From NCBI GenBank assembly GCA_965200955.1, contig OZ241742.1, positions 170,320 through 234,319 of the forward strand: a stretch of DNA of 64,000 nucleotides, given 5' to 3'. Source of the stretch: Rhodothermales bacterium. Its GTDB lineage: Bacteria; Bacteroidota; Rhodothermia; Rhodothermales; Bin80. The notes under the pieces are model-generated. The model was not told where the DNA came from and did not search any database. It saw only the letters and a program-made list of their open reading frames with translations. The position numbers and the translations under genes were made by a program. Positions within the stretch are counted from its first letter, which is position 1. Every line of letters begins with the position of its first letter. Below are positions 18,312 through 25,170 of this stretch, piece by piece.

Positions 18312-21300
18312 CTAAACGTTAGTTTCAATAACACAAATTTCATGATCTGTTAAATCATAAAGATTATATACAAAGTGATCAAGTCTTTTTTTCAAGACTA
18401 AATACTCAGATTTATTATTGTGCAAGTTGGCTTGCGTAATCATGTCGACTAAACTACCATAAGTATAACTGTCTCCGTCGCATGGTTTAGGAATTGGGAT
18501 TTCAATTACACATGATTTGAGCCATTGAGTCTCACCCATTCCAGAAGTTGGTGCAGTATTTCTCACGAACCATGAAATAAGCTTTGAATTCAGAATTACA
18601 CATAGAAACTTAGTTGCTCTACCAGATAAGACATATGCACTGTTGGAAACAAAAAATTCCGACTGGTTGCAATAGGCAAATCTTCCCTGAGTACTGAGAG
18701 TAATCCAAAACAACTTTTCCTGAGAAAAAATATCGTGATAAGCACAAGTATCCTGTAATTCAAACCATTGATGAGGTGTTTTTTTTCTCGACTTAACCCC
18801 ATTAGGCAATTGCTCTCCAGTCTGCTCTAAGCGAGATTTTCCATGAGTGAGTAAATATCTCTTGATTGCAGGATACCTATTTATGTTTAAGTTTCTTGAT
18901 GGAAAAGTAGTGATAATCCATAAGTGAGCCCAGTTTGCATGGTAACGCTGAATATCTCGCCCCCTGAGTACAGGCTTCAAAATTTCTGCTGAATTACTGT
19001 CTTCAGCAATAAGTCTATCTTTAGTAGCTTGATCAACAATAAAGGCTTCATTTAAGCCAGTAGTGATCCCACGGTAAATTGAAACTGATTTCCATTCTTT
19101 TAATGGGGTGCCTTTATTGAACATCTTTTCTAAAATACACCATTCACAGTCACTCAATACTCGCCAGATATCATTTCCGTTTGGCCGAATCTTACCCCAT
19201 TGATTTTGGGGAGGTGGAAGAGCATGAGTACCGATGCGATCCAAATCAATTCCTTTGAATTCATTCTGATGATCATTGGGGGAATTTTGAAGAAACAAAA
19301 TACAGGTATCAACATCTGCTTCAAAAACATCTTTACCCACATCTAAAAGAGATAGAGGAGTAGAATGACGCGATAGGTAATTCCGCAATTTCTTGCCGTA
19401 ATTAGCTCGAAGCCAACTATTGGATGTAATGAAAGCCAAAATTCCTTGATCCTTCAGTAACTCGCATGATCTCTCATAAAATAATTGATAAATATCACCC
19501 GTCCTTGCAAAAGTACGATAACCAGCATCTTTGTATAATTTACCAAGTTTCCCGCCATCCTTCTGAAGAGACCGATAAGGTGGATTACCAATCACAATAT
19601 TGAATCCATCCTCAATCCCAAACATATATTGTGGATCAAACCAGTTGGCAATATTATTCTGGTCATATGGATTCCAAGATACTAACTGGTCTGAAGAATT
19701 TGGAGGAAAACCGAGTACCTTGAGTTCTTCCACTAATTCAGACCGCAATTTGGAGTCAATCAATTCACACTTCTGTTTTTTTTCCGTGCTATTGGCGTGA
19801 AAATATCTCTCACGATTAGTCAATAGTTCTTTCTGTAGAACGATAATTTTTTCGCTATTGAGAGTTCCTTCACTAATCAACTTCATCAGAGAATCCGCCG
19901 CGACAAAACGTGTCTCTAAATTTGGAAGAGGTTTGATTCCATAATTGTCTCTACCTTGATCTGATTCTTGCTCAATAATAAGTGAAATAAAGAAGCGTAA
20001 CTTAGTAATCTGACATGCAATCGCTTGAATATCTATTCCATAAATACTATTCTGAATCAAGTATATCTTACGCCCATAATCACCAGAATAGTTCTCAAAT
20101 ATATTGCTAATCTCAATTAATTCCTCATCTCGATCCGCTTTATCAATCGTTTCAAAGGCCTTATCCGATCTAAGTTTAGCTCTATCTTGTTGAAGACTTC
20201 TCCATAGTGAATTATCCTGATCAAGTTGGCGTAATGCGTAAGTCAATTTATGAAGGATAGTCATTGGAAATGCACCTGATCCAACAGCAGGGTCAAGAAT
20301 CTTTAATTCACTGATAAAACGAACAATTTCCTTCTTGTTTAGATCACTGAATTCTTCAGTTTTTATCTCATAATCAAAAAGTGAACGTAAACGATTTTCC
20401 CAAGACTTTATATTCCCATCTACTGGCTTAATCATTTTGCTCAACAGTGTAATTATCACCTCATCCACCATGTAATTAACAATATTTCTTGGAGTGTAGA
20501 ATGAACCAGTTTCATTTCTGGCAGTGTTTCTTGTTTCAGGGTTGTATGAAGCAAGTAGGTTTTCAAACACTAGTCCAAGCAGTTCTGGATCAAGGGCTAC
20601 ATCAATCTCTGTTGGAGTATTTTCTTCAACAGTAAATTTGTATTGATTAAGGATGGTAAATAAGCCGCTGGCACCAAAAAATAAATCATCTGGTACATTT
20701 AGACTTTCCCTGAATACTTTTTCACTTTCGGAAGCTCCATCCATTAAATAATCATCGTTAAACATGTCCAACTTCTTCGCATTCTGATCTTCATTTTTAT
20801 GATCATCAAGACAATCAAACAGTCCACCATTAATGAATGGAGTTTGTGCCATGAGTTCCTCAAAATGCTCAACTTGATCAATCAGAATCTGATATCTCCA
20901 ATGACTTGTTGTATACATTGGATCACCGTCATTGGTAGGTGTCCACGATCGCTTTTCCATGGGGACATTAAGCGTTGCGAAAAAAAGATTCTGAAGAACC
21001 GCTTGGTAGTAGTCTGATCCACCAAAATGATGAAGTAGATTTCTCATCTTTGACTTAGAGAACCACTCTTCTGAAACAAGTCCTTTTTCCTTCATAAACC
21101 ATACAAAGAGTATGCGTGTCACGCAACGAATTACTTGTTGCTCTGGTGAGACACCAGTGGGCCAAGTTGCAGTTGAAACGGCACGTTCAAACCATTCAAA
21201 CAGTTGTTGATAGAATTGACGATTAAGCGGTTTCGTATCAAGAACAGATTCCCATTTGTCATGGAGTTGATCAAAATTCTTAACACTCTTGTGCTTCTTT

Positions 21301-24800: not shown

Positions 24801-25170
24801 TACCGTGGAGAAAATTGCTTTTTTGAATTGTTCTGATTTCCACTTTATCACGAATCCATTTTTCACATGCTATAGCAATCGGCTTTTGAGAAAGGATCTG
24901 CTTCAGCTCAATTCCACCATCGTCAGTCAAGCGATAATCTTTATGGTCACTTTTTGAAGGATCAATGACTTGTAATCCTCCTGGATCTCCATATAAAAAG
25001 CGTAATTCTTCAATCAGATCTAACTGATCTTTTAAATCGTGATAGGCATAAATGGTAAAATATGCCGATACGATCGATAGCTTAGTTGAAGAATCAAGTT
25101 CTTGGCTGAGGAAATCACCCAGCTTTCGATCTTGATTATCTATGATTGAATTCTTGAAAAGTGTGGTCAT
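21877..25170 (-). CDS. PLD-family (single HKD-like) nuclease domain fused to SNF2-type SF2 ATPase
   Basis: N-terminus: LHGKLYHLN...[12 protein letters not shown] (H-x-K ... G-S-x-N PLD/Nuc-type motif). ATPase: [14 protein letters not shown] (motif I), [12 protein letters not shown] (II), [15 protein letters not shown] (III), [40 protein letters not shown] (V-VI). Confidence 0.85.
   Translation of the reverse strand: [1097 protein letters not shown]

What the first reader, a model, noticed from the sequence alone, without database searches (positions are those of the whole stretch)
18312..25170. Two-gene PLD::SNF2 + N6A-methyltransferase::TRD unit resembling a split type ISP enzyme or a minimal DISARM-like module
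Seen: a 1097-aa protein with one HKD-type PLD nuclease motif and all SNF2 ATPase motifs overlaps by 14 nt a 1192-aa gamma-class methyltransferase with its own specificity region. No DUF1998 helicase (DrmA/DrmB-like) gene, hsdS/hsdR genes or Res/Mod pair is present. Established: type ISP enzymes (LlaGI/LlaBIII) combine nuclease, SF2 motor, methyltransferase and TRD in one chain, but with an Mrr-type nuclease. Class 1 DISARM uses SNF2 (DrmD), N6A methyltransferase (DrmMI) and PLD (DrmC) together with DrmA/DrmB. Inference: the same functional parts are redistributed here over two coupled genes. This suggests a translocating restriction system with a PLD nuclease, and it does not fit the textbook classes cleanly.
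Basis: partly seen in the sequence, partly recalled or inferred. Interest (0 to 1): 0.65.

Follow-up and report, generated by a model that had tools for sequence, protein, structure and literature searches.

The report
Two-gene PLD-SNF2 restriction-modification module
Two overlapping genes encode what is most likely a restriction-modification defence: a DNA motor protein carrying its own nuclease, tied to a site-specific adenine methyltransferase through a little-known adaptor domain (DUF4391). The gene family is widespread and has been noticed in print, but I found no experimental study of it.

Summary
Window 21877-25170(-) encodes a 1097-aa protein with one HKD/PLD motif and a complete SNF2 ATPase. 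It overlaps by 14 nt window 18312-21890(-), which encodes a 1192-aa gamma-class N6-adenine methyltransferase with a TaqI_C-type target-recognition domain (TRD).

New here:
- **Adaptor domain.** The methyltransferase lacks the N-terminal nuclease of true type IIG enzymes. Its first ~205 aa are a divergent DUF4391 domain.
- **Tight coupling.** DUF4391, fused or free-standing, sits directly downstream of a PLD-SNF2 gene in essentially every genome tested (13/13, 22/23, 73/77, plus 2 loci with the methyltransferase upstream).
- **Where the nuclease sits.** The HKD catalytic residues are intact in 72/73 two-gene loci. They are lost in 25/26 loci where PLD-SNF2 and DUF4391 accompany a complete type III Mod+Res pair. 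So PLD is most likely the nuclease of the two-gene form.
- **Specificity switch.** This copy also carries an invertible TRD cassette giving four in-frame variants. Its Xer-like recombinase is frameshifted here.

It is neither DISARM, BREX, Hma/BR nor a type ISP homologue. The gene pair and the same inference were already published in 2018 for Lactococcus plasmid pLd8, and its programmed inversion in 2023 for Bacteroides ovatus. I found no functional study. Verdict: an uncharacterised variant of ATP-dependent restriction-modification, of moderate to good interest.

The parts
21877..25170 (-). PLD-SNF2 protein (P0001, 1097 aa): the predicted restriction subunit, combining motor and nuclease
   Evidence: ORF and translation. 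Pfam finds PLDc_2, SNF2-rel_dom, ResIII and Helicase_C. It matches PADLOC PDLC01075 'C3a139 HKD+Snf2' over its full length, E 2.6e-127.
24571..25170 (-). N-terminal PLD/HKD nuclease domain (aa 1-200). The single HKD motif, H122-x-K124...GSSN143, lies at 24742-24807.
   Evidence: H122, K124 and N143 are all present in 72 of 73 two-gene-form homologues.
22591..24453 (-). SNF2-type two-lobe ATPase core (aa 240-860)
   Evidence: Motifs I, II, III and VI are invariant in 77 of 77 homologues. The best PDB sequence matches are ISWI, Snf2 and RapA.
21880..22590 (-). Conserved C-terminal region of P0001 (aa 861-1097), with no named domain
   Evidence: It is conserved across the A1 alignment. No Pfam hit falls in it.
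18312..21890 (-). DUF4391-like domain fused to a gamma-class N6A methyltransferase and TRD (P0002, 1192 aa): the predicted modification and specificity subunit
   Evidence: PADLOC REase_MTase_IIG models match only from about aa 215 onward.
21276..21890 (-). N-terminal DUF4391-like domain (aa 1-205): the predicted adaptor for the PLD-SNF2 subunit
   Evidence: hhalign against free-standing DUF4391 gives probability 88.7%, E 2.6e-6. 30 of 45 homologues hit PF14335. The AF2 model has pLDDT 90.6 and no PDB fold match. It is always adjacent to PLD-SNF2. Its divergence tracks that of PLD-SNF2, r = 0.73.
19251..21275 (-). Helical linker (aa 206-520) and methyltransferase catalytic domain (aa 521-880), with motif I DPAVGSGA and motif IV NPPY
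   Evidence: DPAxGSGA is present in 45-46 of 46 homologues. N769, P770 and P771 are in 46 of 46 and Y772 in 45 of 46.
18312..19250 (-). Expressed TRD (aa 881-1192, TaqI_C type). It contains switchable modules A1 (18751-18912) and B1 (18312-18651).
   Evidence: Pfam TaqI_C. This is the least conserved region, with mean pairwise identity 0.24.
17637..18260 (+). Silent, promoterless inverted TRD cassette of 207 codons, stop to stop. It contains modules A2 (17690-17824) and B2 (17924-18260) and lies tail-to-tail with the expressed gene.
   Evidence: open frame; TaqI_C hit; all recombinants stay in frame.
17825..17923 (.). Inner inverted repeat, left arm. Its partner is 18652-18750. The arms are 99 nt and 95% complementary.
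   Evidence: The mismatches are listed.
18652..18750 (.). Inner inverted repeat, right arm, inside the expressed methyltransferase gene
17647..17689 (.). Outer inverted repeat, left arm. Its partner is 18913-18955. The arms are 43 nt and 93% complementary.
18913..18955 (.). Outer inverted repeat, right arm, inside the expressed gene at about aa 979-993
   Evidence: In the 88%-identical relative L081, methyltransferase homology ends at aa 985, which is this site.
25388..26316 (-). Xer-like tyrosine recombinase, the candidate TRD invertase. It is frameshifted in this genome within the A6 run at 26165-26170.
   Evidence: Pfam Phage_integrase. It is 53-56% identical to recombinases that sit next to inverted TRD cassettes in L034 and L047. 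An intact 309-aa copy exists in the 97%-identical relative L083.

Best explanation
The two genes most likely form a two-subunit, ATP-dependent restriction-modification system.

**Modification and specificity subunit (P0002).**
- Its C-terminal TaqI_C-type TRD reads a short, probably asymmetric, DNA sequence.
- Its gamma-class catalytic domain methylates an adenine there to mark self DNA.
- It has no nuclease of its own. In place of the type IIG nuclease its first ~205 residues form a DUF4391-like domain.
- I infer that this domain docks the second subunit.

**Restriction subunit (P0001).**
- It has an SNF2-type double-stranded-DNA translocase and an N-terminal PLD/HKD nuclease.
- It carries only one HKD motif per chain. 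Known PLD nucleases (Nuc, BfiI, SauUSI) build one active site from two motifs.
- Cutting should therefore need two P0001 molecules. These could be a standing dimer, or two complexes that translocate from separate unmethylated sites and meet, as in type I and type ISP enzymes.
- A two-site requirement would also explain how a one-strand methylase protects newly replicated DNA.

**Specificity switching in this copy.**
- An inverted silent TRD cassette and two nested inverted repeats allow four in-frame TRD variants.
- Methylation and restriction specificity would switch together.
- The Xer-like recombinase next to the operon is frameshifted here, so the switch may currently be locked.

**Shown:** the domain content, the motif integrity, the gene coupling, the HKD-versus-Res contrast and the in-frame recombinants.

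**Inferred:** the physical complex, translocation, cleavage, the two-site rule and any anti-phage effect.
For: 1. **Catalytic motifs are intact and conserved.**
   - H122, K124 and N143 of the HKD motif are each present in 72-73 of 77 homologues. SNF2 motifs I, II, III and VI are in 77/77.
   - Methyltransferase motif I is in 45-46/46. N769, P770 and P771 are in 46/46 and Y772 in 45/46.

2. **The pair is a conserved unit across phyla.**
   - Of 80 loci fetched, 68 carry the N-domain methyltransferase directly downstream on the same strand.
   - 5 carry a free-standing DUF4391, 2 carry the methyltransferase upstream, and 5 are uninformative.
   - Overlaps of about 4 nt are common.
   - No third gene is conserved. 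The next most frequent gene cluster occurs in at most 10 loci.

3. **The methyltransferase N-terminus is not a type IIG nuclease.**
   - PADLOC type IIG models align only from aa 215, at model position 200.
   - Confident AF2 models have pLDDT 85 and 90.6, yet give no PDB fold match. The best Foldseek E-values are 0.2 and 0.07.

4. **That N-terminus is DUF4391-like.**
   - hhalign gives probability 88.7%, E 2.6e-6.
   - 30 of 45 homologues hit PF14335, best E 8.1e-6. No other family is hit by more than 3.

5. **DUF4391 and PLD-SNF2 are nearly always adjacent.**
   - 13 of 13 Bacteroidota genomes with the N-domain have PLD-SNF2 directly upstream.
   - 22 of 23 Bacillota genomes with a free-standing DUF4391 do too. 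The exception lies at a contig edge.
   - RefSeq annotation of two plasmids shows the same gene order.

6. **The HKD site survives only where it is needed.**
   - It is intact in 72/73 two-gene loci but in only 1/26 loci that also carry type III Mod plus Res (Fisher p = 3.7e-21).

7. **Divergence of PLD-SNF2 tracks the N-domain.** The correlation is r = 0.73 with the N-domain, 0.36 with the methyltransferase core and 0.05 with the TRD.

8. **The TRD switch is coherent.**
   - The silent frame opens just upstream of the outer repeat, a stop codon lying 10 nt before it.
   - All four recombinants are in frame: 1192, 1191, 1182 and 1183 aa.
   - Homologous recombinases lie beside inverted TRD cassettes in two other phyla.

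9. **Published parallels.** Independent authors reached the same reading for Lactococcus pLd8 orf33/orf34 (PMC6098607). A long-read-confirmed inversion is reported for the same gene pair in Bacteroides ovatus (PMC9881135).
Against: - There are no functional data of any kind. Restriction, methylation motif, ATPase activity and complex formation are all untested, here and, as far as I could find, for any family member.
- The window's own N-domain does not itself reach Pfam DUF4391, even at E <= 1. The link rests on its family and on a profile-profile match of 88.7% probability.
- The N-domain / PLD-SNF2 correlation could simply reflect physical linkage. The N-domain coding sequence abuts the PLD-SNF2 gene, so recombination that swaps methyltransferase or TRD parts would give the same gradient.
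- SNF2 proteins in BREX, DISARM and ARMADA act in systems that are not known to work by simple cleavage.
- The recombinase is frameshifted here, and close relatives show decay. In L083 the PLD-SNF2 gene is interrupted. In L081 the methyltransferase is frameshifted and truncated. Activity in this strain is therefore not assured.
Confidence: 0.68

Rival explanations
1. BREX/DISARM-like exclusion without classical cleavage. The methyltransferase marks self DNA, while the SNF2 protein blocks or remodels incoming unmethylated DNA or its replication. The PLD domain would serve as a DNA clamp or sensor, or would only nick.
For: - P0002 is distantly PglX/DrmMI-like.
- SNF2 helicases occur in BREX type 3, DISARM and ARMADA, systems whose mechanism is not simple cutting (PMC12839542 and PMC12458937).
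- In the four-gene sister form the PLD site is dead, yet the domain is retained. The domain therefore has some non-catalytic role.
Against: - The HKD catalytic residues are selectively kept exactly where no other nuclease is encoded: 72/73 against 1/26.
- None of the BREX or DISARM core genes is present.
- The family scores lie far below the cut-offs.
Confidence: 0.14
2. Two functionally separate genes. P0002 would be a solitary phase-variable methyltransferase acting as an epigenetic regulator (a 'phasevarion'), or a self-sufficient type IIG enzyme with a cryptic nuclease. P0001 would be an independent nuclease-helicase, in the manner of the type IV enzyme SauUSI.
For: - PADLOC and REBASE-style models call P0002 'type IIG'.
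- Phase-variable type IIG enzymes such as Cj0031 alter gene expression (cited in PMC9881135).
- PLD-helicase fusions can act alone, as SauUSI does (my own knowledge).
Against: - The genes overlap by 14 nt.
- The N-domain is found only next to PLD-SNF2 (13/13).
- 68 of 80 loci keep the same order and strand.
- No nuclease-like fold or motif is present in P0002.
- A modification-dependent nuclease encoded next to an active methylase would attack its own host.
Confidence: 0.06
3. The locus is a decaying, non-functional remnant in this strain.
For: - The recombinase is frameshifted.
- Close relatives carry disrupted PLD-SNF2 (L083) or a disrupted methyltransferase (L081).
- The system is absent from the four same-genus genomes sampled.
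Against: - Both large ORFs are intact, with every catalytic motif.
- The inverted repeats are 93-95% complementary, with a 75-nt mismatch-free core in the inner one.
- A one-base homopolymer difference could also be an assembly error.
Confidence: 0.12

Closest known systems
Lactococcus lactis FM03P plasmid pLd8 orf33/orf34 (van Mastrigt et al. 2018, PMC6098607); Bacteroides ovatus CP083813.1 locus at 5322008-5329826 (Milman et al. 2023, PMC9881135)
   Same: - The domain architecture is identical: a PLD+SNF2 protein next to a REBASE-'type IIG' methyltransferase-TRD with no restriction domain.
- The 2018 authors drew the same inference, that PLD is the nuclease.
- The B. ovatus copy also undergoes programmed inversion of the methyltransferase gene.
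   Different: - I could not align those records, because they are not in the collections on hand. Family identity is therefore judged from their published descriptions.
- Neither paper recognised the DUF4391-like N-domain.
- Neither paper tested function.
Type ISP restriction-modification enzymes (LlaGI, LlaBIII)
   Same: - The functional parts are the same: nuclease, SF2-type dsDNA motor, gamma-class N6A methyltransferase and C-terminal TRD.
- It probably recognises asymmetric 'half-sites' with one-strand methylation.
   Different: - Type ISP enzymes are a single chain, whereas this is two chains joined by a DUF4391-like adaptor.
- The nuclease is a PLD/HKD domain, not Mrr-type PD-(D/E)xK.
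- The motor is SNF2 family, not the type I HsdR-like motor.
- No sequence-level family relationship was found.
Four-gene PLD-SNF2 / DUF4391 / type III Mod / Res cassette (unnamed; for example L. lactis pUL021B and Acinetobacter gerneri pC-SY-46)
   Same: - The PLD-SNF2 protein is homologous, at about 37-41% identity over its full length.
- A DUF4391 partner follows immediately downstream.
   Different: - There DUF4391 is a separate protein.
- The methylase is a beta-class type III Mod.
- A Res helicase-nuclease is present.
- The HKD site is dead in 25 of 26 copies.
Class 1 DISARM (DrmD SNF2, DrmMI, DrmA, DrmB, DrmC PLD)
   Same: It also combines an SNF2 ATPase, a PLD nuclease and a large Eco57I-type N6A methyltransferase.
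   Different: - There is no DrmA or DrmB (DUF1998/MZB) in the locus.
- P0001 scores 173.5 bits against the DrmD cut-off of 610.
- The PLD domain is fused to SNF2 and is not a free-standing DrmC.
- The PADLOC DrmMI match is weak and partial.
Type IIG/IIL enzymes (Eco57I, MmeI, Cj0031)
   Same: - It shares the Eco57I-type gamma methyltransferase, helical spacer and TaqI_C TRD.
- PADLOC REase_MTase_IIG matches at E about 1e-120.
   Different: - It lacks their N-terminal PD-(D/E)xK nuclease, which is replaced by the DUF4391-like domain.
- It needs a separate ATP-driven partner.
SauUSI (type IV PLD-helicase restriction enzyme)
   Same: It has an N-terminal single-HKD PLD nuclease fused to an SF2 ATPase, and that nuclease acts as a dimer (my own knowledge; the work is cited as ref. 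79 in PMC12839542).
   Different: - SauUSI is modification-dependent.
- It reads DNA through its own C-terminal domain.
- It has no methyltransferase partner.
Type-2 BREX-related (BR) / Hma systems (Rakesh & Krishnan 2026, PMC12839542)
   Same: The helicase there also carries an N-terminal HKD nuclease fused to Swi2/Snf2, and works alongside an N6 methyltransferase.
   Different: - Those systems are built around a DUF499 ATPase plus DUF3780, and neither was found among the ORFs I scanned here.
- The PADLOC HmaA match is only 82.6 bits and partial.

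Membership tests
PLD-SNF2 / DUF4391 module (unnamed; helicase catalogued as C3a139 'HKD+Snf2') | Full-length match of the helicase to the HKD+Snf2 family model | tested here: met
   PADLOC PDLC01075 matches at E 2.6e-127, aa 8-1066 against model positions 3-936 of 948. 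Homologues at 57-73% identity over the full length are found.
PLD-SNF2 / DUF4391 module (unnamed; helicase catalogued as C3a139 'HKD+Snf2') | A DUF4391-type domain encoded immediately downstream of the helicase, free-standing or fused | tested here: met
   The domain is fused to P0002 at aa 1-205. hhalign gives probability 88.7%, E 2.6e-6. 30 of 45 homologues hit PF14335. Adjacency holds in 13/13 and 22/23 genomes. Caveat: the window's own copy gives no direct Pfam hit.
PLD-SNF2 / DUF4391 module (unnamed; helicase catalogued as C3a139 'HKD+Snf2') | A DNA methyltransferase in the same operon | tested here: met
   Eco57I, N6_Mtase and TaqI_C domains are found in P0002. The genes overlap by 14 nt.
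Type ISP restriction-modification | A single polypeptide carrying nuclease, motor, methyltransferase and TRD | tested here: not met
   There are two ORFs, each with its own start and stop codon.
Type ISP restriction-modification | Mrr-like PD-(D/E/Q)xK nuclease | tested here: not met
   The nuclease domain is PLDc_2/HKD.
Type ISP restriction-modification | Gamma-class N6A methyltransferase followed by a C-terminal TRD | tested here: met
Type ISP restriction-modification | ATP-driven translocation, with cleavage needing two head-to-head sites | not testable with these tools
   This needs biochemistry.
Class 1 DISARM | DrmA helicase and DrmB (DUF1998/MZB) in the locus | tested here: not met
   PF09369 matches lie only at genome positions 2.29 and 2.65 Mb, whereas the window spans 170-234 kb.
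Class 1 DISARM | DrmD-family SNF2 helicase | tested here: not met
   NF038317 scores 173.5 bits against a cut-off of 610. NF038318 scores 94 against 950.
Class 1 DISARM | DrmMI-family methyltransferase | tested here: not met
   PADLOC DrmMI scores 79.6 bits over partial stretches, against 409 bits for the type IIG model.
Type IIG restriction-modification (Eco57I/MmeI) | Eco57I-type gamma methyltransferase and TRD in one chain | tested here: met
   PF07669 at E 1e-35 and PF12950 at E 3.7e-12. PADLOC REase_MTase_IIG at E 7.9e-123.
Type IIG restriction-modification (Eco57I/MmeI) | N-terminal PD-(D/E)xK endonuclease domain in the same chain | tested here: not met
   The type IIG models do not cover aa 1-214. 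The conserved residues include no (D/E)xK motif. Confident AF2 models give no nuclease-fold hit. The domain is DUF4391-like.
BREX (PglX-centred) | PglX equivalog together with PglZ and BrxC neighbours | tested here: not met
   NF033452 scores 78.7 bits against a cut-off of 500. No PglZ or BrxC domain appears among the larger neighbouring ORFs I scanned between 10.0 and 37.5 kb.
Type-2 BR / Hma (DUF499-centred) | DUF499 AAA+ ATPase and DUF3780 in the locus | tested here: not met
   The only ATPase nearby is a 374-aa AAA_16-like ORF on the opposite strand. No DUF499 or DUF3780 hit was obtained. The definitions come from PMC12839542.

The most novel reading that the evidence does not exclude
DUF4391 is a general adaptor that couples an SNF2 DNA translocase to interchangeable methyltransferase/specificity modules. 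On this reading it defines a distinct, phylum-spanning class of ATP-dependent restriction enzymes. The cutting site moves between the motor's own PLD domain in the two-gene form, as here, and a type III Res subunit in the four-gene form. In this window the class is further combined with a four-state TRD shufflon, so that one motor-nuclease could be re-aimed at up to four target sequences.
Probability: 0.45. Interest if true: 0.72.

Novelty: new variant of a known kind. Interest (0 to 1): 0.58.

Why it matters
If the model holds, this is an ATP-dependent restriction-modification architecture outside types I-IV and ISP. It would have an SNF2 chromatin-remodeller-type motor, a metal-independent PLD nuclease and a previously functionless domain family (DUF4391) as the coupling element.

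**How common it is.**
- At least 582 confirmed loci were found in a one-genome-per-species collection.
- The N-domain alone matches about 1,100-1,570 protein clusters (at 50% identity).
- 119 plasmids carry a homologue of the helicase.

**Why current tools miss it.** PADLOC files the methyltransferase under generic type IIG models. Its only full-length model for the helicase is a CRISPR type III accessory family.

**What it would give.**
- A function for DUF4391.
- A natural experiment on how nuclease activity is relocated between subunits.
- A compact, re-targetable methylase/nuclease pair.

Tried and rejected
- **DISARM, BREX, Hma/BR and ARMADA membership.** All were rejected on family scores and missing core genes (definitions).
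- **A hidden PD-(D/E)xK nuclease in the methyltransferase N-terminus.** Two confident AF2 models and two Foldseek searches of the PDB gave no match with E < 0.001. The conserved residues include no (D/E)xK motif.
- **Solved-structure sequence searches.** They returned only generic methyltransferase hits (CamA, BseCI, TaqI, PglX) and SNF2 hits.
- **Direct evidence for inversion.**
  - Two metagenome scans, one for the A1 module and one for the inner repeat core, found nothing.
  - Close relatives (L081-L084) do not span the cassette intact.
- **Island boundaries.** Same-genus genomes keep the left flank but have the right-flank gene hundreds of kb away. No empty site could be defined.
- **Sigma-70 promoter and terminator scan.** It found fewer promoter-like sites than shuffled controls, and this organism is a Bacteroidota, so it was uninformative. 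A search for the Bacteroidetes -7 motif upstream of P0001 found none.
- **Literature searches.** Searches for DUF4391 with helicase and methyltransferase, and for compound names such as 'PLD-SNF2', found no functional study.

Full report
**1. Observation**

The two ORFs are exactly as described. P0001 is at 21877-25170(-) and has 1097 aa. P0002 is at 18312-21890(-) and has 1192 aa. They overlap by 14 nt.

P0001 has the following features.
- Pfam finds PLDc_2 (aa 66-180), SNF2-rel_dom/ResIII/DEAD (249-413) and Helicase_C (696-823).
- It has a single HKD motif, H122-G-K124...G140-S-S-N143.
- SNF2 motifs I, II, III and VI are all present.

P0002 has the following features.
- Pfam finds the Eco57I methylase domain (614-856, E 1e-35), N6_Mtase and a TaqI_C specificity domain (972-1133).
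- Motif I is DPAVGSGA (533-540) and motif IV is NPPY (769-772), with the TRD at the C-terminus. This is the gamma-class order.

ORFs of this length with such HMM scores are far beyond chance. The block is poorer in G+C (0.37-0.41) than most of the rest of the window (0.43-0.49 over most 2-kb windows). The methyltransferase N-domain is absent from the four same-genus genomes sampled. Both points fit a horizontally acquired island.

**2. What the databases call it**

For P0001:
- PADLOC's only full-length match is PDLC01075 'C3a139, HKD+Snf2' (E 2.6e-127).
- That name comes from a 2019 catalogue of proteins encoded near type III CRISPR loci (PMC6546367). It is not a defined defence system.
- DrmD, BrxHII, HmaA and DpdE match only the generic helicase lobes.
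- NCBIfam DrmD scores 173.5 bits against a cut-off of 610.

For P0002:
- The best matches are PADLOC 'REase_MTase_IIG' models (E about 1e-120).
- It is only weakly PglX/DrmMI-like. NF033452 scores 78.7 bits against a cut-off of 500.

Public annotation calls P0001 relatives just 'helicase-related protein'.

**3. The pair is a conserved unit**

The P0001 family is very large. All 8000 scored candidates had E < 1e-10, and many full-length relatives are 57-73% identical. A scan of one genome per species confirmed at least 582 encoding loci, and I kept 80, from many phyla.

| Arrangement in the 80 loci | Loci |
|---|---|
| P0002-type methyltransferase, with its N-terminal domain, directly downstream on the same strand | 68 |
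| Free-standing DUF4391 gene downstream | 5 |
| Methyltransferase upstream | 2 |
| Cut by a contig end or too short to tell | 5 |

- Overlaps of about 4 nt between the two genes are frequent.
- No third gene is conserved.
- The next most common neighbours are occasional inserts: Schlafen/AlbA_2-HATPase_c_4 in 10 loci, an SMC-like ATPase in 9, and DUF1016/YhcG in 8.

**4. The methyltransferase has no nuclease; its N-terminus is a DUF4391-like domain**

- True type IIG enzymes begin with a PD-(D/E)xK nuclease.
- The PADLOC type IIG models align to P0002 only from aa 215, at model position 200.
- Across 45 homologues the first 205 aa keep a distinct set of residues: G32, Y33, F78, Q79, E84, R118, R126, N129, R158, R159, D164, D168, H185, R186 and H188. 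There is no (D/E)xK motif.
- AF2 models are confident: pLDDT 85 for aa 1-440 and 90.6 for aa 1-205.
- Neither model finds any PDB fold. The best Foldseek E-values are 0.2 and 0.07, with TM-scores of at most 0.25.

The five loci without a P0002-type partner encode, right after PLD-SNF2, a 254-aa DUF4391 protein. This is followed by a type III Mod (N6_N4_Mtase) and a type III Res (ResIII + RE_endonuc).

Two tests link the P0002 N-domain to DUF4391.
- Profile-profile comparison of the 45 N-domains with these DUF4391 proteins gives probability 88.7%, E 2.6e-6, over 94 columns. The aligned motifs are NK.F.MPV / K.IP.P and RR.HKRD..RDVL.KV / KR.hK.D..K.V.EE.
- Scanned one by one, 30 of the 45 N-domains hit Pfam DUF4391, best E 8.1e-6. 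No other family is hit by more than 3.

The window's own copy is too diverged to hit by itself. This is the main caveat on this link.

**5. DUF4391 and PLD-SNF2 are almost always neighbours**

- In 401 Bacteroidota genomes the N-domain occurs in 13. In all 13 a PLD-SNF2 gene lies directly upstream on the same strand.
- In 301 Bacillota genomes a free-standing DUF4391 occurs in 26. Of 23 tested, 22 have PLD-SNF2 immediately upstream, and the exception sits at a contig edge.
- RefSeq annotation of a conjugative Lactococcus lactis plasmid reads 'helicase-related protein / DUF4391 domain-containing protein / site-specific DNA-methyltransferase / DEAD/DEAH box helicase'.
- An Acinetobacter plasmid shows the same order, there as the neighbour of Tn7-like transposition genes.
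- A profile of the N-domain matches 1572 cluster representatives at E <= 0.001, and 1100 at E <= 1e-10. In the 150 best hits it lies at or within about 25 residues of the N-terminus. Most of these proteins are about 1150-1370 aa.

**6. Which protein cuts?**

| Form | HKD triad (H122, K124, N143) intact |
|---|---|
| Two-gene form | 72 of 73 |
| Four-gene form with type III Mod + Res | 1 of 26 |

- In the four-gene form H becomes Q, N or G; K becomes R or another residue; and GSSN is degraded.
- The contrast has Fisher p = 3.7e-21.
- The ATPase motifs stay invariant in all 77 aligned proteins.
- Selection therefore keeps the PLD active site exactly where the operon has no other nuclease. This is the strongest argument that P0001 is the restriction subunit here.

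**7. Modularity**

| P0002 region | Mean pairwise identity | Correlation (r) with PLD-SNF2 identity |
|---|---|---|
| N-domain | 0.39 | 0.73 |
| Helical linker | 0.51 | 0.36 (linker and catalytic domain together) |
| Methyltransferase catalytic domain | 0.43 | 0.36 (linker and catalytic domain together) |
| TRD | 0.24 | 0.05 |

The pattern fits an adaptor that co-evolves with the motor, and TRDs that are exchanged freely. Simple physical linkage of the N-domain coding sequence to the upstream gene could give the same gradient.

**8. Specificity switch in this copy**

- Tail-to-tail with P0002 lies a promoterless open frame of 207 codons, stop to stop (17637-18260, +). It has a TaqI_C match.
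- Two nested inverted repeats link it to the expressed TRD: 17825-17923 / 18652-18750 (99 nt, 95%) and 17647-17689 / 18913-18955 (43 nt, 93%).
- The silent frame opens just upstream of the outer repeat, a stop codon lying 10 nt before it.
- Simulated inversion at either repeat, or at both, gives full-length in-frame proteins of 1191, 1182 and 1183 aa, against 1192 aa now. This makes four TRD combinations.
- The gene upstream of P0001 (25388-26316, -) is a Xer-like tyrosine recombinase.
- It is 53-56% identical to recombinases lying beside inverted TRD cassettes of the same system in a Latescibacterota MAG and a Binatia MAG (L034, L047). L047 has a 112-nt perfect inverted repeat.
- Only these 2 of about 50 complete loci, plus the window, carry such cassettes. 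The shufflon is therefore an optional add-on.
- In this genome the recombinase is frameshifted within the homopolymer run at 26165-26170. A 97%-identical relative (L083) has an intact 309-aa gene. Whether this is a real lesion or an assembly error cannot be told from the sequence.
- In an 88%-identical relative (L081) the methyltransferase is frameshifted, and homology to P0002 ends at aa 985, the outer repeat site. That hints the site is recombinogenic.
- I could not test inversion directly.

**9. Mechanism proposed**

See Best explanation for the full model. In brief, the shown and inferred parts are as follows.
- **Shown:** the domain inventory, the motif integrity, the near-obligate coupling, the HKD-versus-Res contrast and the in-frame recombinants.
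- **Inferred:** P0002 binds and methylates its site, and its DUF4391-like domain recruits P0001.
- **Inferred:** unmethylated sites license ATP-driven translocation.
- **Inferred:** cutting needs two single-HKD domains to pair, as in Nuc, BfiI and SauUSI (my own knowledge). This makes a two-site or collision mechanism attractive, and it would also protect hemimethylated daughter DNA.

**10. Comparison with what is known**

- It works like a split type ISP enzyme, but shares neither the nuclease fold, the motor family nor the single-chain layout.
- It shares three domain types with class 1 DISARM, but lacks DrmA and DrmB and fails the DrmD and DrmMI models.
- Hma / type-2 BR systems also have an HKD-Snf2 helicase, but are built around DUF499 and DUF3780 (PMC12839542). 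Neither is present here.
- ARMADA II needs a YprA helicase (PMC12458937).
- The true relatives are unnamed loci already noticed in print:
  - L. lactis pLd8 orf33/orf34. Its authors noted that the 'type IIG' protein has no restriction domain, proposed the PLD of the SNF2 protein as the nuclease, and remarked on DISARM class 1 (PMC6098607).
  - A B. ovatus locus with a long-read-confirmed inversion of the methyltransferase gene (PMC9881135).
- I found no paper on DUF4391's role and no functional study of the pair.

**11. Verdict**

This analysis adds three things:
- the DUF4391 adaptor link;
- the near-absolute PLD-SNF2/DUF4391 coupling;
- the evidence that nuclease activity sits in PLD only in the two-gene form.

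It is an uncharacterised variant of ATP-dependent restriction-modification. Earlier AI notes in this scan reached similar readings in other genomes. I treated them as leads and reproduced the key claims independently.

Noticed in passing
window 8176-12572 (-): A ubiquitin-like conjugation cassette lies close by: ThiF-JAB (10075-11469) and multi-ubiquitin plus prokaryotic E2 (11466-12572). It is followed by an OLD/AriA/GajA-like ABC-ATPase ORF (8176-9825). Together with the restriction module this makes the region a multi-system defence neighbourhood.
   Followed up: no
window 15749-16873 (+): An intact 374-aa AAA_16-type P-loop ATPase lies between tRNA-Pro and the silent TRD cassette. It has no partner gene and only faint matches (MADS mad8, Sll1717 family). 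The flanking small ORFs at 14798-15082, 15115-15504 and 15501-15746 have no Pfam hit.
   Followed up: partly
L083:5912-6009 (97%-identical relative; equivalent to window 22823): In the closest relative the PLD-SNF2 gene is interrupted at the equivalent of codon 784, and unrelated sequence follows to the contig end. Its recombinase, in contrast, is intact.
   Followed up: partly
L081:7187-10245 (88%-identical relative): The methyltransferase is frameshifted near aa 774-784. Homology to P0002 stops at aa 985, which is the outer inverted-repeat site, and unrelated glycosyltransferase genes follow. The recombinase there is also split into 210-aa and 107-aa pieces.
   Followed up: partly
L094:1241-17222 (Acinetobacter gerneri plasmid NZ_OR492670.1): The four-gene PLD-SNF2 / DUF4391 / Mod / Res cassette lies immediately after TnsA, Mu-type transposase, TniB and TniQ genes. 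It may therefore be cargo of a Tn7-like transposon.
   Followed up: no
own genome G000:C1:2289934-2290206 and 2653193-2653393: Two very large ORFs (2074 and 1732 aa) carry MZB/DUF1998 domains elsewhere in the chromosome. They may belong to DISARM-, Druantia- or Dpd-type systems and are unrelated to this locus.
   Followed up: no
L047:19692-22291: A Binatia MAG carries two extra TRD cassettes joined by a 112-nt perfect inverted repeat, next to a recombinase 53% identical to the window's. Its methyltransferase ORF appears to be separated from these cassettes by about 3.5 kb.
   Followed up: partly
L095 (G583:C1:1761500-1774300): This is the one four-gene (type III-associated) locus of 26 that still has an intact HGK...GSSNFT motif. 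It may be a recent or transitional form.
   Followed up: no
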